A DNA stretch of 52,942 nucleotides, filler included, from Basidiobolus ranarum (Eukaryota): assembly GCA_040143965.1 (NCBI GenBank). It is 3 parts of 3 records of this genome, joined end to end, with 100 filler letters (N's around TTAATTAATTAA, not from the genome) between each part and the next. Parts side by side here need not be neighbours in the genome. Positions count along the whole stretch, not along the records: positions 17,697 to 35,285 come from JASJQH010000301.1; 2 more parts are not named here. One strand, given 5' to 3'. Positions 5,101-32,766 of this stretch are shown piece after piece. A program made the translations under genes and the position numbers. Under the pieces are notes generated by a model. That model was not told the origin of the DNA, made no database searches, and saw only the letters and a list, made by a program, of their open reading frames with translations. The number at the start of each line of letters is the position of its first letter. Positions within the stretch are counted from its first letter, which is position 1.

Positions 5101-7483
5101 GATCTGCCTGACGAATATCTTGGTAAATATGCAAGTAACTTGCCCAGGTTTTAGTCTTCACAAAGGAAGTTGAAGCTTCTAATTGAGTTAAGGGCTTCAC
5201 ATCTTCTGGAGAGGCAGAAGAGGGTATTATCAGGTAGATATTCGCTTCAAATATCCTCCAATATTAAATGGTTCACTTTCTACAATTTCGTGAGGATATT
5301 GTCAAAAGAGTAACTAAAAATATAACATTCAAAGCTTCTGTAGATAGATCTGCGTTAAACATTTCGAGAGGCCAAGATTCTGGAGAATGAAAAGAAATAT
5401 CGGACCAGTAAAGCTATCTTATAATTTCACTCTAGTGTAGAGCGGGAAGAACGAAAGAAAACTGAAAGTGTGTCCAAGAAACATTCGAAAACACTTAAGG
5501 AATAGTATATGGAGTACTGGATAGAGTCGATCTTTGCCAGAGCTCAGTACAAATTAGGTATGGATGGGAAAGCCATTCAAGGAGGTAGATGCCAATATTT
5601 CATCATAAATCTACCGCAGGAGCTCTTGCGGCGTTTACTCGAGGGGAGCTATCCGAATGAAAGTGATATGGATGAGGAACTAGATGATGATATAAACAAG
5701 ATTGTTGGTCGCATCAACAAAAAGCTAAGCATCTTTGAGCTAATCGATTAAGAAAGAGCGCCTGAGGTCAAAAGTTTTGAAACGTACAGGTGGACAAGGT
5801 GAAAAGGCCGAGGGATTTTTACAAGATCATGGGCTACCTGATATATATATCAGGTACACAATAGGTTATCGGAAATGACGATCTTGAACCATGAAGCAGG
5901 AGAGATGAGGTAAGAAAGAACAATATATTGGTATACTGCAGTTCAAACATTCAAAACGTAGCAGACCTAAGAAAGAATGTGTTAACGATGCTGACAGCAT
6001 GCTAGCAGTGGAATACTAGAAGAGGAGAGTACTTCAGATCTTATCGGGACTCCGGATTAAGGCGATGGTTTGACTTCAAGAATGCCGACGGAGCAAACTC
6101 TGTAGAAGTCGTCAATACAAGTCTGCCTAGTTATTGACCAACACGTATTTGTCATACAGATGACTTAGATAATTTAGATACAGGGCCAAACATCGAAAAA
6201 AGAGTACGAATAAATACACTCAGACCCTCACCAGAAATAACCACTTTCAAGCGAACTCGCCGACAGGGTGTTTTAGATGAAAAACCTCAAGAATCGAAGT
6301 AGGCGAAGGATGAAATTTTATCAAGTTCTTTATACAGGGCTTTATAGTATTATTTATTCAATTTCAGGTCATTGTTTCGGTTGGCTAACCAAACTGGAAT
6401 CAAGGCTATCCAACAATGTTCATCTTTATAGATGAAAATCCAGACACGAAGAGATACCACGAAATGGTATCTGGCTTATAAACTAATCAGACAAAGATAT
6501 TTGTTCCAAATCAATCATCAACCATCTAGCAATAATATATGAAATGCTTATTATTACTGGTATGTTTGATTATTAGTTTAAGACATCGGGAAAAGCGACC
6601 AAAAGATCCATAGCTGTAAACATAGGTCTATTGAGAAAAAAGGTTGCCTGTCTATCGTATTAATGGGAAACCATCACCATTTGAAACTTTCGTAGTCTCT
6701 GTAAGCATATAAACAGCATCTATGTGTATCGTTTAGTATAGGATATTTTGGGATTCTTTCAAACTTTTTGATGATTTTTCTCGTGTTGCTGAGCCATGGT
6801 AAACATATCAAACTCAAATAGAATTCGCTCGGAACTCAAATGTACAGGAATGAAGAACTCATGTATAGTTGTCATCTGGAGGTTTTTCTGTGGTTGTTCG
6901 ATTATCGTTTCGATTCATCATCTCGAAATATTCGATGTCTACTGTTAAATATTACTATATTCGATCCATAACGAATACCGAGATATATGTATATGATAAA
7001 TCCCAAACGAATAAAGTATCGCAAATATGTAGAGGTGCAGATAGATAGAAAGTCACCAAGAATTTACGCAGCCTTCAATGCTAATTTATATCTCCGGAGT
7101 AGATGTATGGAACGGTTACCGTTATTACGCTGAAAGAAAATTTCCCTTCTACAACGAATTGATGGAACCTTCGTACTGTCGAAAAGGTTATTTTCATACG
7201 GAAAGTAGGAATTTATTGTCACTCAAAATCCGTTGATTTCGTAACTGGTGGAACTATTACAGACAGTAGTCTGGAGTCACGGAGATTTTCATTACATTTC
7301 CCTAATGCACCTAGAGTATCTCATATATCAATAAAAGAACACTCTCCAACAATCATTCAAAGTGTATCTCCCACTTTCACTCAAGATTCTTTCATAACTA
7401 GTCAGTTACTCGTATCCTTTAAAATCACAATTGTCGCACTACTCTTCACAAATAACTAAACACTCGACAAAATTCCCAATAGA

Positions 7484-8443
7484 ATGCTCAAATTAGCTTG
7501 CCTGATATTAACTGCTTGGTCAAGCATTCACCAAGTAAATGCACAAGGAAAGGCAGTACCGTTCTGTAAAAATGAATACGAAAAAACCCCCAAGAATTGT
7601 GGAAAGTTTCAATTTACCGTGAAGAAGGCTAATTGTAAGCTGGATGAAAAATTGACCCGAGAATTCTATAATATCGAAAAATGGTCCGCTGCAAAGATCT
7701 CTCCCAGAGCTAAAAAATATGCCGAGATTATAACCAACGTATTCGAAAACGGTGACGAGATATTCGGCTACGCAGCTTGCGAGAAATTAAACGATGGTAG
7801 AGGATTTACTTGTGGTAGGATAGGCTTTACCTCCGGTACAGGGGATGCTCTGACTGTACTACAGAAGTATGAAGGAATTGCTCCACGCTCCGCCCTCTCT
7901 AAATACATCCCTACTTTGAAAAAAATCGATACTCTAGCGCAATGCGATTCTAGAAGGGATAATACAAATGAACTGGTGGGATTTGATAAAGCCTGGATAA
8001 AGACATCTTGTCAAGACCCAAGATTTAACAGAATACAAGATCAAATCAACGACGGCATGTATTTTATCCCTGCATTAAAATTCGCCCAGAAAATGGGTAT
8101 CCAAAGTAATCTTGGAAAAGCCATCTTTTATGACACCATAATACAGCATGGGTGGCAAATGAATGAAGCCGACATCAACTTGGTAAAAATCTTGACTGTA
8201 ACTGGAAAAAGGGGTTACATGACAGAGAAACAGTATTTGGAGAAGTTCTTGAAAACACGGCGTCAACTATTATGCTGCTATCCAGATGACACCTGGCCAC
8301 CTTCTGCCGATCGAGTGGCTGACCTTCAAGCTGTTATAAAGAAAGGGGACATGAATCTTTCCCGACCAATCTATCTGCCAAATTATGGAGTCCGAGTTAC
8401 TGGAAAAGAAATTACTAATACGCCTGGACCCCAGTGCAAATAA
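7484..8443 (+). CDS. Secreted GH46 chitosanase, intronless
   Basis: Signal peptide MLKLACLILTAWSSIHQVNA; FENG...LNDGRGFTCGRIGFTSGTGD matches the GH46 catalytic Glu/Asp region; YDTIIQHG also typical of GH46. Confidence 0.88.
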   Translation: MLKLACLILTAWSSIHQVNAQGKAVPFCKNEYEKTPKNCGKFQFTVKKANCKLDEKLTREFYNIEKWSAAKISPRAKKYAEIITNVFENGDEIFGYAACEKLNDGRGFTCGRIGFTSGTGDALTVLQKYEGIAPRSALSKYIPTLKKIDTLAQCDSRRDNTNELVGFDKAWIKTSCQDPRFNRIQDQINDGMYFIPALKFAQKMGIQSNLGKAIFYDTIIQHGWQMNEADINLVKILTVTGKRGYMTEKQYLEKFLKTRRQLLCCYPDDTWPPSADRVADLQAVIKKGDMNLSRPIYLPNYGVRVTGKEITNTPGPQCK

Positions 8444-17596: not shown

Positions 17597-17696
17597 NNNN
17601 NNNNNNNNNNNNNNNNNNNNNNNNNNNNNNNNNNNNNNNNTTAATTAATTAANNNNNNNNNNNNNNNNNNNNNNNNNNNNNNNNNNNNNNNNNNNN
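17597..17696. other. Artificial contig linker (N44-TTAATTAATTAA-N44)
   Basis: Exactly 100 nt; the central 12-mer gives stop codons in all six frames; identical to the linker at 35286-35385. Confidence 0.97.
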
Positions 17697-18016
17697 GTGG
17701 TTTGGAGAATTAGAGGAATTGGTGGTTTTCACTTATTGATTTATTGAGTAGAAAGTTGACATTTATAGTTTTGTCAAGATGTAAACAAACTAATGTGTAG
17801 AATATGTCAAGGAAGGTCCCAGGAACATGTGTGCAAAGTTTGGGGCTTCTAGCCCAAGCTTGAAAAATCTATATATCTGAGAACTTCCAAGTTGGTAAAA
17901 ATATTCCAGGTAAATTCCAATTGAGAATAATTGATAATATCTTAGTGAATTATAAGACAGATAAGTACTAAGCTATATATGACTATATAGGTGTTTAGGC
18001 AATGCTAATTTCAACA
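17697..18016 (-). mobile_element. Ty1/copia LTR, truncated by the contig edge, inverted relative to the adjacent copy
   Basis: Starts TGTTGAAATTAGCATTG on the minus strand at 18016; ungapped match to 52733-52942 with 8 mismatches in 210 nt. Confidence 0.88.
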
Positions 18017-18447
18017 ACCAAACCATTAGCTAGACAGAAATTTGAGAAATTTAGACCTTTATTAGGATTAATTTATATAACTATTTAGTTGAGGGAGAGT
18101 GTTGAAATTAGCATTGCCTAAAAACCTATATAGTCGTATATAGCTTAGTACTTTGTTATCTTATAATTTGCTAAGACATTATCCATTATTCTCAATTGAA
18201 ATTCACTTGGAATATTCTTACCAACTTAGAAGTTCTCAGATATATAAATTTTTCAAACTTGCTTTAGAAGCCCCAAGCTTTGCACACACGTTTCTGGGAC
18301 CATCCCTAACACATTCTACACATTAGTTTGTTTACATCTTGACAAAACTACAAATGTCAACTGAATACTCAATAAATCAATCAGTGAAAACCACCAATTC
18401 CTCTAATTCTCCGAACTGCTTCCAACAGGCTCCCAAATACTTTACCA
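18017..18447 (+). mobile_element. 3' end of a Ty1/copia element: RNase H C-terminus, PPT and 348-bp 3' LTR
   Basis: 18017-18088 reads TKPLARQKFEKFRPLLGLIYITI* (copia RNase H end); polypurine tract TTGAGGGAGAG 18089-18099; LTR TGTTGAAA...TTTACCA 18100-18447 containing TATA-like and AATAAA signals. Confidence 0.88.
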
Positions 18448-18497
18448 TCTCCAACCACTTGCAACAGGCTCCCAAAATATTTTAACATTACCAGAGT

Positions 18498-18717
18498 TGA
18501 AGTTTCATGTATATAAATTTTTCAAACTTGTACTAGAGACTTCAAACTAGGTATACATGCTCCTAGGATCTTTGTTAATACATTCTATATGTTTGTTTAT
18601 ATATTCTTTGACAAATGTATAAATGTCAACTTTCCACTCAATAAATTAATAAATGAAAACCACCAATTCTTCTAGTTCTCCAAACCACTTCCAACAAACA
18701 TTCAAAATGCATTAACA
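18498..18717 (+). mobile_element. Older, diverged partial LTR of the same family
   Basis: Aligns to the LTR 3' portion (AAATGTCAACT...GAAAACCACCAATT...ATTAACA). Confidence 0.75.
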
Positions 18718-20514
18718 TGTAGAAGTTCAACCTGTGGTAATAGGTAGGGTAAACTCAGTAGTTCCTGGTACCATAGAATTTGATCTGCAGTTGTCAACAC
18801 TTTCCTTGCGATTGAGATATAGTGGTATCTAACTATCACTAGAGAGTCAAGCAGAAATTCCACTCTAAAGCACTGTTAAAAATGTGCTAACAGTATCATT
18901 GTTCCGATCTTCAAGCGAATGGCTCAAATTAGGGGCCTTCGGGTTCTTTGTAAGCACTGCAACAATATGTCACTTCAGATTTTGTAAGATTATTTACGAT
19001 TTGTTGAAAAATATTCGAAGAAAATTGTTCTGAAAAAGCGAAACATCAAGTCCATAAAGATATCTCGAGAGATACCAGACAAGATGTATTATAATTCAGT
19101 TAATACTCTTGGTCCGCGCCATTTGCAAACTAATCATGGATGCGTGGACTAGCTTATGGTAAGCGGATCTTTAAATGTAAGTAAGGTACTACAGACAAAT
19201 TCCTGCCCTTTTTGTTAAATCCGGGTGGTAGATGAGTTTTATGGGATGCGAAGAATCCTCTCGTTACTTGTATTTCTCTAACCAGTTATCCCCAGAATCA
19301 TGTGATCACCCAGATGGACTCGGGTCTCCACGAATATCTGATGTCTATTCAGATACTCTAATATAGGTGCTAATCTAACACCACTGACAAACTTCAATCA
19401 CCAGAGATGAGCAAGTTAGTGGTGGAATTTATACACTGGACAGAACGGTGCGCTGAAAAAGTTTCAAAAAGTACAAAATCCTAGACCATACAAAAGATAA
19501 AAATATCCTATTGTATATCGTTACGGCCTTTTAAGGTCAACTGTTTTTATATGTAAGTAAAAAATTCCAACCAAATTTCTGTTCAGGTGCAAAAACCAAG
19601 TGTTTGAAGGTCATAGCCAATACTACTGAAGATTCTCCCCTTCATCTTTGGAATCGTGATCTGGCTGCTACTTTGAACTTTAGACATATCCTTTTTAACT
19701 TGCGCTCAAAGGGAGAAAGACCAGAACGTTTTTGCATATTGAAGGAACCTCTCTCCACCGGGTATAAAAGAAAGGGTATCTCGTCAGCTAGCAGCTGTCG
19801 ACCAACTCAAAAAGCAATCAATTCTATGTGGTTATCGAATCCTGTGTGGCCATCGCTACAAAGTATCTTTTGCCATGTCTGAGCTTTTCTCCAATTTATT
19901 TTATGAAATGTCTAATTGATCTTTTTAATTCATCTTATTTTAGATTAAACTGTAGTACGATTATCATCTCTTTGTCGCGTTTATTGCACCGCGCCATTCC
20001 TGGTCACTTGGTTAGATAGCTTAGTACCCAATACAATCTTTCTACAAACAATCAGACAAGTGGTGAAGCTGGCTCTTTCTTGAAATATTCCGTTATGAGC
20101 TTTATTTTTGGGTACAGACGGAAAACTTCAATGCATATACAGACGCCATAATTTGGCATAATACCAATTCCTTCGATTAGAAGGGAAAATAAATCAGGTG
20201 TAATGATATAGAATTGAGGGAGACAATAAATATATACAAGGTGATAATAACATAGGCCGAGGATGATGCTAAAAAACCTAGGATATCTCCAATTACCAAC
20301 ATGAGTGAAAGTAATGGATATCTCGTTAGACTGATGGGTGGTATAAGCGATCTTGCGAGCATATGCCGTAAGATGCTCACGATAATACATATATATTTGG
20401 TGGAACAGTACATACGTATCCTTATCTATTTTATCCTTTACAAAGATATACGCGGCCATAGCAAGGAATTGGGAGGGTCCATAGACTTGTAGTTATAAAC
20501 TGTGGATTTGTTGT

Positions 20515-27415: not shown

Positions 27416-28240
27416 CTAACTAAGAATCAATAAATTATACAGAAAGCCACCGGCAATACCACCAGCGTATGGTGCTACTACCGGGACCCAGAAGTAGTAG
27501 TCATGAGTGGAGAACACTTGCCAACCCCAACCGAAAAACGCGGTAAATAAACGAGGCGCAAAATCACGAGCAGGATTCAATGCATATCCAGTCATCCAGC
27601 CAAGACTGATACCGATAGCAGTCAAATGTAATCCTATAGCCAATGCAACATATCCTTTACCTTGGTTATTGCGTTCATCGGTAATAGCAAATATACCCAA
27701 AGTTAACGCAGCAGTGCCAACAAATTCAGCCAAGAATGCCGAGCCGATGTTATTAAACGATTGTGGATAGGTTGCAAAGATTCCCGCCGTAGTCATAGAG
27801 AACTTATCCCCCTTCAACATATCGAATGCTGGATTGTAGATGAAATAGACCACCGCAGAGGCGATGAAAGCTCCAAGAAATTGAGCAACTATATAACTCA
27901 AAACACGGTTCCAAGAGAACTTGCGTAGGTACGCCATAGCTACTGTGACAGCGGGGTTCAGATGACCTCCAGAAACCCCGCCCGAAACATAGATACCTGC
28001 GGCTAAGCCCAACCCCCACCCAATGTTGTTGCTCAGATAAGCGCTTTCACTGGCATATGTATTGAAAGTGTTTTGTGCGTTGACACCTAATCCAAAGAGC
28101 ACCAGAACAAATGTACCTAGAAACTCGGCCAATGCTGGCTTGTGTTCAGCTTTGAAGTGCTCCCATTTAGTGAGCGCAACCGAACCATGTCCTAGGAGAC
28201 TATCATGTTCTGTTTGTTGACCCGATTCGACTTCAGACAT
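27416..28240 (-). CDS. Aquaglyceroporin (MIP family, GlpF type), intronless
   Basis: AEFLGT, SGGHLNPAVT, GIFATYP, GYALNPARDFAPR (the D after NPAR is the glyceroporin signature). Confidence 0.93.
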   Translation of the reverse strand: MSEVESGQQTEHDSLLGHGSVALTKWEHFKAEHKPALAEFLGTFVLVLFGLGVNAQNTFNTYASESAYLSNNIGWGLGLAAGIYVSGGVSGGHLNPAVTVAMAYLRKFSWNRVLSYIVAQFLGAFIASAVVYFIYNPAFDMLKGDKFSMTTAGIFATYPQSFNNIGSAFLAEFVGTAALTLGIFAITDERNNQGKGYVALAIGLHLTAIGISLGWMTGYALNPARDFAPRLFTAFFGWGWQVFSTHDYYFWVPVVAPYAGGIAGGFLYNLLILS

Positions 28241-29227
28241 TCTGATAAGCTTGGAGGAGATCCAGGACCAGGAAGAAAGTTGAGGATTACTCAGTCTCGA
28301 GTCAACACATATTTATACTTTTTGCAATAGATTTGAATTCTGTAAGTCCACTTATTATACTTTATCACTCATTTCAAAGGTATACAAATGTCATCTCTTC
28401 AACTCCCTACTGTAATTGGGGTTCCACTTGGTTTAAGGATTATTAATTGAAACCTCGGTATACTACGATACACTGTATACTAATCTCTGATCATTATATT
28501 AAAAAAGATCCCACACTTTAGATGTACACTAACTATGCCATGCTAGTAGGTTAAGTAGTAAACATCAGGCTGAGTGATAGTAGATGTGTATTTGTCAGTT
28601 GATGTCGCAAGGACGCTCTAAGTGTATTAACCCGTTAACGAAGGAGGAGAAACAGTACTGAGGCTTCGATTACAAATTGAGCCTGCACTATCGGGTGGCT
28701 GGTGAAGTTTCATATTGATTGTGATTACAAGTCTTCACATTCATCCAGAAAGCGTTGTGTGTTGACAAGTATGATGGTTTTGCCTAGGAGGCTGAGGCTC
28801 CATGGTCAGGTGGATTTGAGGGAAACATGGTTGATTAGACGTCATAACCATTGGGAGTCTCTGTAGAATACATATGCCTCCAGATCACCATATCTATAGG
28901 TAGATTAGTTCAAACAAGGAGGTGTATTAGGTCACATTTCCTCTTGCCTATACTTGTTGAGTTTCTTGAATATAGATTTAATAGAGATTGGATATAAAAC
29001 ATGTATCAGTCTTGTTCTATTAGATACGTCGGACTGATCATCGTCAATTCATTTGCCTCCATTTCTACTCGTACATTACTACAGTATTTTAAGTTGGGTT
29101 TGGAACGTTTTTAAACAAAATTGGGGAGAATTGAAAAATATTTTGAAACACTTTTTCCTGTCTACTGTATATCTTCATATCTCTATATTCCTCCCTCACT
29201 CTCTCTTACTTTTTAGCGATATAACTA

Positions 29228-31332
29228 CCTATAAAATAAATGTTTAGAGAAAAAATCCATGATATATTAAAAATGGTTTGGAAGCGTAATAAAGAGATAG
29301 AAGAGGAACAAGGTAAAACCTAAAGACGTTATTATACATGATACATAGAAGATATAATAGCAATATCTGATACCCATGTACATAATATAGTCGGTACAAA
29401 GCATAAAAGACCTACTGAATATGAAAAAAATGAGTCAAAAAGGCAAAAATTTATGCAAAACGAAAGGGTAGTGAGGTTTAACAAGAAGAGAGCGTAGCTG
29501 TATGCTCAAGCTGTCACCAAAGCGGTCATAAAAGTTCAAAGTCAAGAGAATGTCCAAACCATAAGTCAACTAAGCAAGAGGAAGTACAAGCACTGCTGGG
29601 AAAGCACACAAGCATAGCAAGAAAGATAAAGTTAGACACGATCCTAAAGCTGGCATACAAGACACCCATCACAGCCAAGGTACGACTAGTATCAGAACAC
29701 ATTCGTAATATAATGATACGTGCTCAACTGTTTGTGGACTACTACGTAATTACCCACTGTGATCAAGCTGTTGACAAAAGAGTCTTTACACATAATTTTT
29801 GGTACTGCGTAACGCAGTTAGTTTTAAGAAAAAACCCAAAAAATACAAAGGCCATGCCAAACGGCTGTTTGACCTTTTGGGAAAGCTTCTTTTCAAGATA
29901 CAACGTAACTTATGAGATGACACCTGTCAGTGATTATTCTAAATTCTGCTACTGTCTACACAAACGCGATTGTAGACTGTTTCGAATCCAGAATTAGATC
30001 ATCCATTGTGTATGATATGAAATTATTCAAAAACGTAAATATACATACAAAATTATATTATTACTATTTCCAAATTACGCATTCATTCTTTATTTAGCCA
30101 AACAAAGGTCTCATAAAAAATTGTTCATTCATACTGCTATCAATACGTTTGTGGAGGAACTCCAGCCTGGCCAGATGCACTTCCTGAAGAATACAACGAT
30201 AAAAAACCAGCTATTGAAGAGATATGTAAGGATTTGCTGTTGACAGATATGCCTAATCCTGTAACGCTGGTAAGCTTGTTTGCCTCTCCTGGGGCATAGA
30301 TTTCCATGTTGGCTAGACTTATGAGAAAGAACGAATACCAACAAGAACAACAGCAGGGACAAGAAAAAAATAAGATGAAGAACAAAAACAAGAACCTCCT
30401 TGCTTGTTTTCGCTATGTCCTGAGCCTTCACTGAAGTGGAGGTTCATAGCGTTCAACCCAAACTGTATTTCCACTTTGGCTGATATAAAGCTCCCAGTCA
30501 CATACGAAGCCAAACTTGAAATGTTTAACAAGGTGTTTGATATTAAGAGACTCAGACTAAACAGTTAAGATGTTTGAGCCTATGTGACACATAGTATGTA
30601 AAAATTTCTTACTTACGAAGTTCTTGGGTATAGTAGCTTCCAAGACCTAAAAGATCCAGACAAGACAAAATTTGCTTTCTCAAACTTAATCAGAACTGAC
30701 GGCTACGCCGCTGATGTTATCTTTCATAAAAGTTTGCAAACGAGTACAGAAGACTTAGGATATTATCATATATATTCACGTGTTGTTTTATTAGAAGAGC
30801 CAACAGATATTGGAAGCCAGAGAAATTTAACCAAGATAAAAATAAGCTACCGATCATCTCCTTTGGTAACGGAATGTTTCGCAAAGGTTCGGTTAAGATT
30901 AAGGGCCTTAGAACAGGCGTCACCGGTGTTCTTTGGCGACAGCTCAAGTTCAGACAAAGATCTGGTGATCTTTTGCTCGTTTATGTCGACGAATTTCGAA
31001 CGTCGAAGGTACAAGATGTCGAACTGATTTTAGCTTATTTATGATTGAATCTAATAATACTGTAAACATGGACCTGTCATTCATGTAACGAAAGATCATT
31101 TACTGAAGCGTATATCGGGTTAAATAGTGTCCAAGCTTGTCAAAGTTGTGGGATATTATGGCAACGCGATGTAAACGCTTCAAAAGATATTTTCAAGATT
31201 TCCAAAGACGTAATCAGTGGTCATGGGTGCCCAACAGCATTTTCTAGAAGCCAATGACTTCTTTCATCATATATAATACATCCCCGTCTCGTACACGGTT
31301 TCTCTTTTCGAAGAGATTTAGATTTTTACAGG
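29228..31332 (+). mobile_element. Non-autonomous Fanzor-carrying DNA transposon with candidate TA target duplication and short imperfect TIRs
   Basis: Left TA|CCTATAAAATAAAT (29226-); right ATTTAGATTTTTACAGG|TA (-31334), whose reverse complement is CCTGTAAAAATCTAAAT; encloses the Fanzor pseudogene; no transposase seen. Confidence 0.6.
29421..31257 (+). pseudogene. Fanzor1 (eukaryotic TnpB/Cas12-like RuvC nuclease), degenerate, with introns
   Basis: CSSCHQSGHKSSKSREC knuckle (29503-29553); LFSLCPEPSLKWRFI; FSNLIRTDGY (30695); LPIISFGNGMF; VYVDEFRTSK (RuvC-II Glu 30991); CHSC...CQSC zinc finger; WQRDVNASKDI (RuvC-III Asp 31168); GHGCPTAFSR*. In-frame stops, frameshifts and an apparent RuvC-I deletion. 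Start position approximate. Confidence 0.85.
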
Positions 31333-31350
31333 TAAAAAATGGAATATCTT
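31258..31350 (+). ncRNA. Putative Fanzor omegaRNA scaffold plus flanking guide
   Basis: Lies between the Fanzor stop and the right end; hairpins CCGT-N7-ACGG (31284-31298) and TCTCTT-TTCG-AAGAGA (31301-31316). Boundaries are inferred. Confidence 0.45.
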
Positions 31351-31450: not shown

Positions 31451-32766
31451 CTATTCGTAGTCATCACGTACTTTATCTATTTGTCGCTCTAATTTCTTAG
31501 CATCATTAACTAGATTTTGATATTGGTTGATATTCAGTCCATGCTTGATATAAAGCTTCATCTGCCTTTGAGATACTGCGTAATGTGCCAATGCCTCATA
31601 GGTGTATTCCCGCTTAGTGATCAAGAAGTATAAGTATCCTACGATACCCATGCCAATACTAGTAAAGTATGCCACTGGCTCCATAACTATTTCAAAAGAG
31701 CATTTAGTTAAATAGGTCATCAACAAAAGTATATAAATCTGCACAAACCGTCCCATCCATAATCCCACCATGTTAGACGTGCCTAGACATACCCAGGATT
31801 CAATATAAATGAAATACGAAACGTATAAATAGAGAGATTAAATCCTACCATGATGCCAATGTATGTAACCAGGCCAGTGAAACTTCCAGTAGCTAATACC
31901 AGAGAAGCGGTTTGTGCCTGTTTATCTAATGATTTCTTCAATTTGGACATTGGTTCGATTCTAGATAGTAAATGGTTGTGAAATCTAACTAATCCGGCTG
32001 CTCTTTCTGTTACAATTTGATTTAAAAAGTTAGAACATCCAATTTCACCCAACGAAATTTTGTAAACATGTGGAAATATTTGCCTTCAAAAGTTGGGATT
32101 TTAACAAAGATTTTCTCGTTATCAATCACAACGATGAATCCCTTGGCTTCTCCACACGTAGCAGCTCGTACTAGATCATCCACTTGAAAGTCACTTGTCC
32201 AATCATCACCAATTTTTAATCCATACAAGGCTTCGTGAATGGAGATTTTCTTAATGTGAGGGTACTCTTCTTTTATCTGTTGACTGATGGTAGATATGGG
32301 TAAAGTGAAGCCCAATAACAAGGAAGCAAGTTGAGGTCTCTTACAGTTGGGAGTTGGAATTGGTAAAAAAAACCTAGGGTTTCCGCTATAAGTATCAAAA
32401 TCGAGATAACCTACGAAAAATAGAAATTAATCATTGAAGGAAAAAGGATGAAAGCTATACACTTCACTTACCCATGGCGACATTTCCACCTTCGGCGTCA
32501 GTAATGAACTCGGTTTGGTCACGCTCCTCTGGTTTCAGGTGACTTACCTGAGTGGTGAATTTTTGATTTCCTCCGGCGAACCATACTTTTGTTGCTTTAT
32601 TGACTCTCGTAGAAAAAGGTGAAGTCAGATCAGACCGAGAAATAGTGTCTAATATTTTTCTACCCGGAGCTTTAGGTCCCAAAGAAAGATGACGTGCTTG
32701 GTGCAATAAAATACGGGTGGCACTTAATGCATGTTTTGAAGTGATATGTAGAAGTCCAGCTTGCAT
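31451..32766 (-). CDS. MCU: Mitochondrial calcium uniporter family protein, multi-exon
   Basis: Basic, presequence-like N-terminus; a 34-nt exon (31749-31782) yields ARLTWWDYGWDVMEPVAYF, the WDxxEP selectivity filter between two TMs; C-terminal coiled coil. Confidence 0.88.

What the first reader, a model, noticed from the sequence alone, without database searches (positions are those of the whole stretch)
29421..31257. Hidden Fanzor (eukaryotic RNA-guided TnpB-like nuclease) gene with spliceosomal introns
Seen: stitching + strand frames gives IRTDGY, IISFGNG, VDEFRTSK, CxxC...CxxC, WQRDVNA and GxGCPxxFxR* in the order expected for a TnpB/Fanzor RuvC C-terminus, with candidate introns at about 30035-30097, about 30565-30630 and 31009-31071. 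Established: Fanzors are OMEGA-family programmable DNA endonucleases. Inference: this genome hosts a Fanzor1 family, possibly uncharacterised, and intact siblings may exist. This copy looks dead: stop at 29479, frameshifts, and only about 110 nt between VIFHK and LPIISFG, so RuvC-I and the bridge helix appear deleted.
Basis: partly seen in the sequence, partly recalled or inferred. Interest (0 to 1): 0.92.

Follow-up and report, generated by a model that had tools for sequence, protein, structure and literature searches.

The report
Dead Fanzor1 nuclease gene relic
This is a decayed, non-functional copy of a fungal Fanzor1 (TnpB-like RNA-guided nuclease) gene with introns, an ordinary relic of a known transposon-borne family and not a working enzyme.

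Summary
They lie colinear with full-length fungal Fanzor1 proteins.

**What it is.** A profile of 11 relatives matches seven window reading frames in order, with E-values from 9e-37 to 1e-3. Against solved structures, the same profile finds Spizellomyces Fanzor1 first, at E 7.9e-10. The gene runs 29240-31257 on the + strand, so it starts 181 nt before the reported start. It has four introns at positions shared with relatives.

**Why it is dead.**
- Four frame breaks.
- Two in-frame stops, TAA at 29479 and TAG at 30297.
- Loss of about 0.5 kb, which removes profile positions 435-604 including the RuvC-I aspartate motif.
- A last intron without an AG acceptor.

**Relatives.** The closest named protein is a Basidiobolus ranarum fragment (89% identity). 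All other named relatives are from Mucorales. Some of those are 690-759 aa gene models with every catalytic motif.

**Other observations.**
- A 60-nt block just after the stop codon is conserved with a distant relative (0 of 300 shuffles reach its score). It might be an omega-RNA or element-end remnant, but folding gives no support.
- No terminal repeats were found.
- A second, different Fanzor1 relic lies at 19217-19735.

**Verdict.** I could not search the genome for intact siblings.

The parts
29240..29312 (+). Exon 1: start codon and first 24 codons (MFREKIHD...)
   Evidence: Translation. It resembles the N-terminus of P0107 (MFRQRIREK...; sequence) by eye.
29313..29390 (+). Intron 1, 78 nt, GTAAAA...ATATAG
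   Evidence: The relatives P0178 and P0179 resume at the same LVGT/IVGT junction.
29391..30034 (+). Exon 2 (N-terminal K/R-rich stretch, CCHC-like knuckle 29503-29553, helical region). Lesions: a frame break near 29449, an in-frame TAA at 29479-29481, and a frame break with about 23 nt missing at 29941-29947.
   Evidence: (profile 52-197, E 9e-37; 215-258, E 1e-3)
30035..30097 (+). Intron 2, 63 nt, GTAAAT...TTTAG, in phase
   Evidence: Same position as the read-through intron in P0179, the spliced Parasitella model P0180 and L002.
30098..30563 (+). Exon 3. Lesions: a frame break in the A-run at 30113-30119, an in-frame TAG at 30297-30299 (Tyr in P0179 and P0180), and a frame break between 30377 and 30395.
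   Evidence: (profile 254-309, E 1e-11; 336-394, E 1.4e-12)
30564..30620 (+). Intron 3, 57 nt, GTTAAG...CGAAG, in phase
   Evidence: The spliced reading ...RLRLN-ILGYSSFQDL fits P0107 ...KLGFESIQEL.
30621..30775 (+). Remaining part of exon 4, with the conserved IRTDGY strand motif (30689-30706)
   Evidence: (profile 387-434, E 7e-7)
30776..30804 (+). Deletion junction. About 0.5 kb (profile positions 435-604, holding the RuvC-I D-P-G-R motif and the following helical region) is missing and the frame changes. The acceptor-like ttattag at 30790-30796 may be the end of an intron that relatives have just before KWKP.
   Evidence: no frame of the window matches profile 435-604. (relatives hold about 170 residues here). 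The exact breakpoint is inferred.
30805..31008 (+). Exon with the rearranged RuvC-II region. Gly at the canonical position (30865-30867, in IISFGNG) and the alternative Glu (30991-30993, in VDEFRTSK).
   Evidence: (profile 605-674, E 6e-27). PMC10530073 passages.
31009..31071 (+). Intron 4, 63 nt, with a GT donor but no AG acceptor (ends ...CATGG)
   Evidence: The close relatives P0002, P0003 and P0005 also read TSK-V... into an intron here. L001 and L002 have no intron at this place.
31072..31257 (+). Last exon. Zinc ribbon (CHSC inside 31072-31086, CQSC 31138-31149), RuvC-III Asp of QRD (31168-31170), GHGCPTAFSR tail, TGA stop 31255-31257.
   Evidence: PF07282, E 1.7e-5; profile 674-734, E 2e-12
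31275..31334 (+). Conserved non-coding block 18 nt after the stop. Candidate remnant of the omega-RNA scaffold or element end; function not shown.
   Evidence: 75% identity over 61 aligned columns with L002 3145-3205. 0 of 300 dinucleotide shuffles reach its 40.1 bits; the best shuffle scores 34.6. Folding is not better than shuffles.

Best explanation
Window 29240-31257 (+) is a pseudogene of a Fanzor1 gene. Fanzor1 is the eukaryotic, intron-bearing, transposon-borne relative of bacterial TnpB.

The copy belongs to a subfamily with an N-terminal CCHC-like knuckle. That subfamily is common in Mucorales and has a sibling in Basidiobolus ranarum. An intact member would be an omega-RNA-guided RuvC DNA endonuclease; this is inferred from the family, not tested here.

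This copy cannot make that enzyme:
- The reading frame is broken four times.
- It is stopped twice.
- The exon region holding the RuvC-I aspartate is deleted.
- The last intron has lost its acceptor.

It sits alone between an aquaporin gene and a mitochondrial calcium uniporter gene. No transposase and no recognisable terminal repeats accompany it. It is therefore a stranded, decaying remnant of an old insertion.
For: **Colinear match to the family.**
- The family profile matches colinearly in seven pieces.
- Full-length relatives P0032, P0107, P0179, P0180, P0003 and P0009 match colinearly too.

**The family is Fanzor1.**
- Profile A1 finds SpuFz1 8gkh at E 7.9e-10. LaTranC and TnpB/Cas12f-type chains follow at 1.8e-3 to 0.42, 9 sequences in all.
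- P0032 alone finds only SpuFz1, at E 1.8e-4.
- 17 of 33 aligned members hit PF07282.

**Fanzor signature kept in the window.**
- Gly at the canonical RuvC-II site and Glu 42 residues later.
- TS-x-x-CxxC...CxxC-x5-RD.
- The GxGxPxxFxR tail aligned to SpuFz1.

**Lesions**.
- P0179 carries the parts that match window 29437-30562 in one continuous 448-aa frame. The window needs three frames and shows two stops there.
- Host frames nearby are intact: the MIP frame is 298 aa and gives 186 bits. General assembly error is therefore unlikely.
Against: - Three of the four frame breaks fall in or beside A-runs (about 29449, 30113-30119, 30377-30395). That is where sequencing errors also occur.
- Five of the six window pieces gave no Pfam hit. 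The sixth is 1 bit under the PF07282 cut-off.
- The RuvC-II exon alone finds nothing meaningful in the PDB.
- No transcript data could be examined, so splicing and silence are inferred.
- No structure was obtained. The job failed and later jobs were not accepted.
Confidence: 0.9

Rival explanations
1. The protein gene is dead, but the locus is still used. On this reading it is a deletion derivative, like the 'ghost' loci of Spizellomyces. Its conserved 3' block would be transcribed as an omega-RNA that guides intact Fanzor1 proteins made elsewhere in the genome.
For: - A 60-nt block 18 nt after the stop is 75% identical to the same place in L002. The L002 protein is only about 39-50% identical to the window.
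- 0 of 300 shuffles reach the block's score.
- P0005, a Logan relative, also goes from the TDG motif almost straight to ISFGNG. Internally deleted copies may therefore recur.
Against: - Only two sequences share the block. L001 does not.
- Folding energies are no better than shuffles: z +0.82, -1.05, -0.29 and +0.87.
- No Rfam family matches.
- In L002 the right terminal repeat lies 140-230 nt after the stop. The window shows no such repeat.
- No RNA data are available.
Confidence: 0.06
2. The gene is intact and functional, and the breaks are assembly errors or unusual splicing.
For: - Three frame breaks lie at A-runs.
- The exons are still 46-60% identical to relatives.
Against: - TAA 29479 and TAG 30297 are substitutions inside conserved, aligned exon sequence.
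- About 170 profile positions, with the RuvC-I motif, are absent from the entire window.
- About 23 nt are missing at 29941-29947.
- Intron 4 has no AG.
- The B. ranarum sibling P0001 reads the same non-homologous frame across 30375-30416. The break at 30377-30395 is therefore probably shared, not an error of this assembly (inference).
Confidence: 0.03
3. It is not a Fanzor. It would be a chance collection of motifs, a bacterial TnpB contaminant, or an unrelated host zinc-ribbon protein.
For: - Most single pieces have no Pfam hit.
- A cluster mate of relative P0009 is labelled Klebsiella pneumoniae.
Against: - The profile E-values are in the right order.
- GT-AG introns are shared with fungal relatives.
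- All other named relatives are fungal.
- Eukaryotic host genes lie on both sides.
- SpuFz1 is the best solved relative of the family.
Confidence: 0.01

Closest known systems
Spizellomyces punctatus Fanzor1 (SpuFz1, PDB 8GKH and 9CEU-9CEZ), an experimentally shown omega-RNA-guided DNA endonuclease
   Same: - It is the best solved relative of the family: profile E 7.9e-10, aligned over the RuvC-I D-P motif region and the DE-x-x-TS...zinc ribbon...W-x-RD...G-x-G-R-P-x-x-F-x-R tail.
- The window's last exon aligns to its C-terminus.
- The RD aspartate corresponds to the catalytic D606 named in PMC11423790 (passage). The numbering offset is my own inference from the fusion chain.
   Different: - The similarity is at profile level only.
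- The window family has an N-terminal CCHC-like knuckle.
- The window copy lacks RuvC-I and is broken.
- No inverted repeats and no shown omega-RNA.
Mucorales 'Cas12f1-like TNB domain-containing' and hypothetical proteins: Mucor lusitanicus P0107/P0167 (744-759 aa), Mucor flavus P0032/P0152/P0153 (690-720 aa), Parasitella parasitica P0180
   Same: - Same subfamily and colinear from N-terminus to tail.
- 33-60% identity by segment.
- Same knuckle and the same intron places.
   Different: - These gene models keep the D-P-G-R RuvC-I motif and an open frame.
- The window copy does not.
Basidiobolus ranarum hypothetical protein K7432_007851 (P0001, 239 aa)
   Same: - Closest named sequence: 89% identity over 64 residues and 82% over 38.
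- It reads the same wrong frame at window 30375-30416. It begins right after the place of the window's TAG. It therefore probably shares lesions with the window copy.
   Different: - P0001 keeps a stretch (…NRFYLYQGVQRARAEM…K/R-rich) that the window has lost.
- It is only a gene model, and I did not see its DNA.
Bacterial/archaeal TnpB of IS200/IS605 and IS607, and Cas12f
   Same: RuvC plus zinc-ribbon (TNB) C-terminal architecture. PF07282 hit. Weak profile hits at E 0.011-0.018.
   Different: The window gene has eukaryotic introns, a long N-terminal extension and the rearranged RuvC-II glutamate. No TnpA is present.
Parasitella parasitica Fanzor1 (PpFz1, PDB 9CF0)
   Same: It is the best match of the second relic at 19535-19879, at E 3.6e-5.
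   Different: It is not found by the profile of the main finding's family at E up to 1. It is therefore a different Fanzor1 subfamily.

Membership tests
TnpB/Fanzor superfamily (motif of Bao and Jurka 2013: D-X(125,275)-[TS][TS]-X-X-C4 zinc finger-X(5,50)-RD; PMC3627910, passages) | First aspartate (RuvC-I) | tested here: not met
   Profile positions 435-604, which hold the D-P-G-R motif in relatives, match no frame of the window. Relatives have the motif.
TnpB/Fanzor superfamily | [TS][TS]-X-X-C4 zinc finger | tested here: met
   T-S-K, then intron 4, then T-C-H-S-C ... C-Q-S-C. PF07282 hit at E 1.7e-5, 25.3 bits against a cut-off of 26.3.
TnpB/Fanzor superfamily | X(5,50)-RD after the zinc finger (RuvC-III) | tested here: met
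   C-Q-S-C-G-I-L-W-Q-R-D, with Asp at 31168-31170. Aligned to the RD of Cas12m, TnpB-like L79 and SpuFz1.
Fanzor (PMC10530073, passages) | Canonical RuvC-II Glu replaced by Gly or Pro, with an alternative Glu about 45 residues downstream | tested here: met
   Gly at 30865-30867 and Glu at 30991-30993, 42 residues apart (coordinates). F-G and D-E-x-x-T-S are invariant in 10 of 10 aligned sequences.
Fanzor1 | Sequence relationship to an experimentally validated Fanzor1 | tested here: met
   For the family: SpuFz1 at E 7.9e-10. For the window's own last exon: only E 0.014. For its RuvC-II exon: none.
Fanzor1 | Fold of a full member compared with SpuFz1 | not tested
   The structure job failed. 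New jobs were not accepted.
Fanzor (eukaryotic adaptation) | Spliceosomal introns and an N-terminal basic (NLS-like) stretch | tested here: met
   Three GT-AG introns and one with a lost acceptor. Intron places are shared with relatives. A K/R-rich stretch at 29391-29478 is seen directly. No NLS predictor was run.
Fanzor/OMEGA system | Omega-RNA encoded at the 3' end of the element | tested here: inconclusive
   A conserved 60-nt block follows the stop. There is no folding support and no Rfam hit. RNA data are not available.
Fanzor/OMEGA system | Residence in a transposon with recognisable ends | tested here: not met
   No convincing inverted repeats flank the gene. The L002-type terminus is absent. 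Relative L002 has 92-nt terminal inverted repeats.
Functional gene | Open reading frame after splicing | tested here: not met
   Four frame breaks, two stops, one deletion and one lost acceptor.

The most novel reading that the evidence does not exclude
The relic is one of a set of internally deleted copies that were propagated after the protein gene had died. Its conserved 3' block would be the omega-RNA or end module of a CCHC-knuckle Fanzor1 subfamily that has not been biochemically characterised. Basidiobolus would have acquired that subfamily horizontally from Mucorales-type fungi, and intact, active siblings would still exist in this genome.
Probability: 0.1. Interest if true: 0.5.

Novelty: new member of a known kind. 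Interest (0 to 1): 0.2.

Why it matters
Fanzors are the eukaryotic RNA-guided nucleases and are of interest as compact genome editors. This copy cannot be one.

Its value is modest:
- It marks a Fanzor1 subfamily with an N-terminal knuckle in a Basidiobolus-like genome. My two full-text searches found no paper that links Fanzor or TnpB with that genus.
- It shows two different Fanzor1 lineages decaying within 12 kb of gene-dense DNA.
- It points to a short conserved 3' block that could help locate the subfamily's guide RNA in intact relatives.

Tried and rejected
**Searches that could not be run or found nothing**
- Whole-genome search for siblings: no genome is held.
- Metagenome scan with the window's RuvC-II exon: 445 pattern matches, none a relative.
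- Metagenome scan with alignment A2: 2 loci, L001 and L002.
I did not repeat it.
- Viral contigs: 23 distant loci, mostly giant-virus bins, at 23-39% identity. I did not follow them up.

**Weak or negative sequence tests**
- Pfam on six window pieces: 5 of 6 without a hit.
- PDB search with the RuvC-II exon alone: only CalO2 at E 1.9.
- Rfam over the whole window: 0 matches. tRNAs: 0.
- Terminal repeats around the gene: only short pairs of 70-94% complementarity, of the kind expected by chance. I accepted none.
- L002's terminus motif: 0 matches in the window.
- 3' block motifs elsewhere in the window: no more matches than in shuffles.
- RNA folding of the 3' regions of the window and L002: z-scores +0.82, -1.05, -0.29 and +0.87.

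**Readings I dropped**
- My first guess that 30732-30796 is simply an intron. Frame 2 continues to resemble P0003 up to about 30775, so I read it as exon remnant plus a deletion junction.
- L002 as an 'intact' example. It has one frame break near 1040.

**Other**
- Structure prediction of P0167 with alignment A4: the job was interrupted and new jobs were not accepted.
- Atlas search with the neighbouring aquaporin: gave no useful taxonomy.
- A FastTree of the 68-residue RuvC-II region places the window with P0001 among Mucorales and unnamed sequences. The alignment is too short, and no support values were examined, so I draw no transfer conclusion from it.
Full report
**1.

The script gives their coordinates:
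- IRTDGY 30689-30706
- VIFHK 30716-30730
- IISFGNG 30853-30873
- VDEFRTSK 30985-31008
- TCHSC 31072-31086
- CQSC 31138-31149
- WQRDVNA 31159-31179
- GHGCPTAFSRSQ 31219-31254, followed by TGA

The distance from VIFHK to LPIISFG is 116 nt. The region occurs once in the window.

**2. It is a Fanzor1 relative**

Direct tests on the window pieces are weak:
- Of six stop-to-stop pieces scanned against Pfam, one hits. The last exon matches PF07282 (Cas12f1-like TNB domain) at E 1.7e-5 and 25.3 bits, one bit under the curated cut-off. The other five give nothing.
- That exon alone finds Cas12m (4.3e-4), TnpB-like L79 (6.4e-3) and SpuFz1 (0.014) among solved structures. The W-x-RD...GHG-x-P-x-x-FSRS tail aligns to the SpuFz1 C-terminus.
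- The RuvC-II exon alone finds nothing meaningful in the PDB.

The link becomes firm through relatives:
- A full HMMER scan with the RuvC-II exon gave 216 proteins at E up to 1e-3, 37 up to 1e-10 and none up to 1e-30.
- Two of them are full-length, P0032 (690 aa) and P0107 (744 aa).
- P0032 passes PF07282 at 31.5 bits. Its only solved relative is SpuFz1, at E 1.8e-4.
- A profile of 11 relatives (A1) finds SpuFz1 at E 7.9e-10. The alignment includes the RuvC-I D-P motif and the C-terminal DE-x-x-TS / zinc ribbon / RD / GxGRPxxF region.
- LaTranC and TnpB/Cas12f-type chains follow at 1.8e-3 to 0.42, 9 sequences in all.
- 17 of 33 members of a wider alignment hit PF07282. Many of the others are fragments.

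The window also shows the Fanzor-specific rearranged catalytic site described by Jiang et al. (PMC10530073, passages seen). Gly occupies the canonical RuvC-II position, and a Glu lies 42 residues downstream (coordinates). F-G and D-E-x-x-T-S are invariant in 10 of 10 aligned sequences.

**3. Gene structure**

A local hmmsearch of profile A1 (738 positions) was run against all 2805 stop-to-stop frames of the window. It matches, in order:

| Profile positions | Window frame | E-value |
|---|---|---|
| 52-197 | 29482-29994 | 9e-37 |
| 215-258 | 29921-30094 | 1e-3 |
| 254-309 | 30117-30296 | 1e-11 |
| 336-394 | 30374-30565 | 1.4e-12 |
| 387-434 | 30602-31024 | 7e-7 |
| 605-674 | 30730-31041 | 6e-27 |
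| 674-734 | 31066-31254 | 2e-12 |

The tblastn maps and the codon read-out complete the model. The gene starts at ATG 29240 and has four introns:
- 29313-29390 (78 nt)
- 30035-30097 (63 nt)
- 30564-30620 (57 nt)
- 31009-31071 (63 nt)

The first three have GT-AG ends and keep the phase.

Relatives support the intron places:
- The Logan frame P0179 reads through the second intron, where the spliced Parasitella model P0180 skips it.
- The metagenome locus L002 has stop-containing inserts at the same place.
- The closest relatives P0002, P0003 and P0005 all run from T-S-K into V..., as expected for a GT donor at the fourth intron.

**4. It is dead**

Relative to homologues that carry these parts in a single frame (P0178, P0179), the window shows:
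- a frame break at about 29449
- an in-frame TAA at 29479
- about 23 nt missing, with a frame break, at 29941-29947
- a frame break in the A-run at 30113-30119
- an in-frame TAG at 30297, where P0179 and P0180 have Tyr
- a frame break between 30377 and 30395
- loss of profile positions 435-604 together with a frame change near 30776-30804
- no AG acceptor for the fourth intron. The only AGs between 31009 and 31100 start at 31014, 31032 and 31093.

The lost segment holds the D-P-G-R RuvC-I motif and the following R-C-S-T-K-E-Y-Y ... L-Y-x-G-R-Q-R-A region in relatives. From the Asp of T-D-G to the Trp of (K/Y)-W-K-P there are 113 nt in the window, against 654 nt in L002 (coordinates). So about 0.5 kb is gone. 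No frame elsewhere in the window matches it.

Neighbouring host frames are intact: a 298-aa aquaporin frame gives 186 bits. General assembly error is therefore an unlikely explanation, although three of the frame breaks lie at A-runs.

The B. ranarum sibling P0001 reads the same non-homologous frame across the equivalent of 30375-30416. It begins just after the equivalent of the TAG. This suggests that some lesions are shared, either through orthology or through copying of an already dead element. That is an inference from a gene model, because I did not see its DNA.

**5. Relatives and host**

- The closest named protein is B. ranarum K7432_007851, with 89% identity over 64 residues.
- Of 30 relatives looked up by exact sequence, every other named representative is from Mucorales: Mucor, Mycotypha, Rhizopus, Phycomyces, Cokeromyces, Spinellus, Gilbertella, Apophysomyces.
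- One partial cluster mate is labelled Klebsiella. I take it for contamination.
- The rest are unnamed Logan or JGI sequences.
- Two further word-based searches added Parasitella, Pilobolus, Benjaminiella and a Phycomyces 'CCHC-type zinc finger transcription factor'.
- NCBI places Basidiobolus in its own phylum under Fungi incertae sedis.
- Bao and Jurka list 10 Fanzor1 families in Mucor circinelloides (PMC3627910, passage).

The kind is therefore known.

No paper in the searchable library holds Fanzor or TnpB together with Basidiobolus, or Fanzor with 'zinc knuckle'. Supplementary tables were closed and may list such loci.

**6. Surroundings and possible RNA part**

The relic lies between an aquaporin gene (27416-28312, minus strand) and the last exon of a mitochondrial calcium uniporter gene (31451-31837, minus strand). 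The window is gene-dense. No transposase and no convincing terminal repeats flank the relic.

The relative L002 sits inside 92-nt terminal inverted repeats with TA|CAGTCAG... termini. These look Tc1/mariner-like, which is my recollection of that superfamily's ends and not a test. No such terminus occurs in the window.

The strongest DNA-level similarity between the window and L002 is not coding. Window 31275-31334, starting 18 nt after the stop, matches L002 3145-3205 at 75% over 61 aligned columns. 0 of 300 dinucleotide shuffles reach its 40.1 bits; the best shuffle scores 34.6.

[quoted passage not shown] The block is therefore a candidate scaffold or end remnant.

The case against that reading:
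- Only two sequences share the block.
- L001 does not.
- None of four folds beats shuffles.
- Rfam finds nothing.

**7. Verdict**

This is a Fanzor1-type gene with spliceosomal introns, it is dead, and its RuvC-I region is deleted. It is a new (pseudogene) member of a known kind.

Noticed in passing
window 19217-19735 (+): A second, different Fanzor1 relic. The frame 19535-19879 (…LHLWNRDLAATLNFRHILFNLRSKGERPERF) finds Parasitella parasitica Fanzor1 (9cf0) as its best solved relative at E 3.6e-5. Upstream frames hold VVDEFY and SCDHPDG pieces. There is no Pfam hit. Only C-terminal fragments seem to remain.
   Followed up: partly
window 17597-18688: A run of N at about 17597-17697 is followed by a large inverted repeat: arms 17700-18016 and 18100-18416, 317 nt, 90% complementary. 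A third partial copy lies at 18505-18688. It is just upstream of the second Fanzor relic and may be a foldback or MITE-like element.
   Followed up: no
L002 73-3390 (metagenome contig): A close relative of Mucor flavus P0032. It lies inside 92-nt terminal inverted repeats (84% complementary) with TA|CAGTCAGRCTGGG termini, so it is a Fanzor1 carried by a Tc1/mariner-like non-autonomous element. It has one frame break near 1040. The P0032 gene model appears to skip the exon holding the T-D-G motif, which L002 encodes at about 2077-2133.
   Followed up: partly
window 29503-29553 and relatives: An N-terminal C-x2-C-x4-H-x7-C knuckle is conserved in this Fanzor1 subfamily: window, P0032, P0107, P0041, P0178, P0179. 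Only 1 of 33 members reaches a Pfam zinc-knuckle model (zf-CCHC_6, E 7.5e-4). No paper in the library pairs Fanzor with 'zinc knuckle'.
   Followed up: partly
window 7460-8443 (+): A 327-aa open frame with a glycoside hydrolase family 46 (chitosanase) domain, E 2e-44. As I recall, this family is mostly bacterial, so it may have been acquired horizontally by the fungus.
   Followed up: no
L003-L025 (IMG/VR): 23 loci, most from giant-virus bins (GVMAG), encode distant relatives of the C-terminal RuvC/zinc-ribbon region at 23-39% identity. This agrees with published reports of Fanzors in giant viruses.
   Followed up: no
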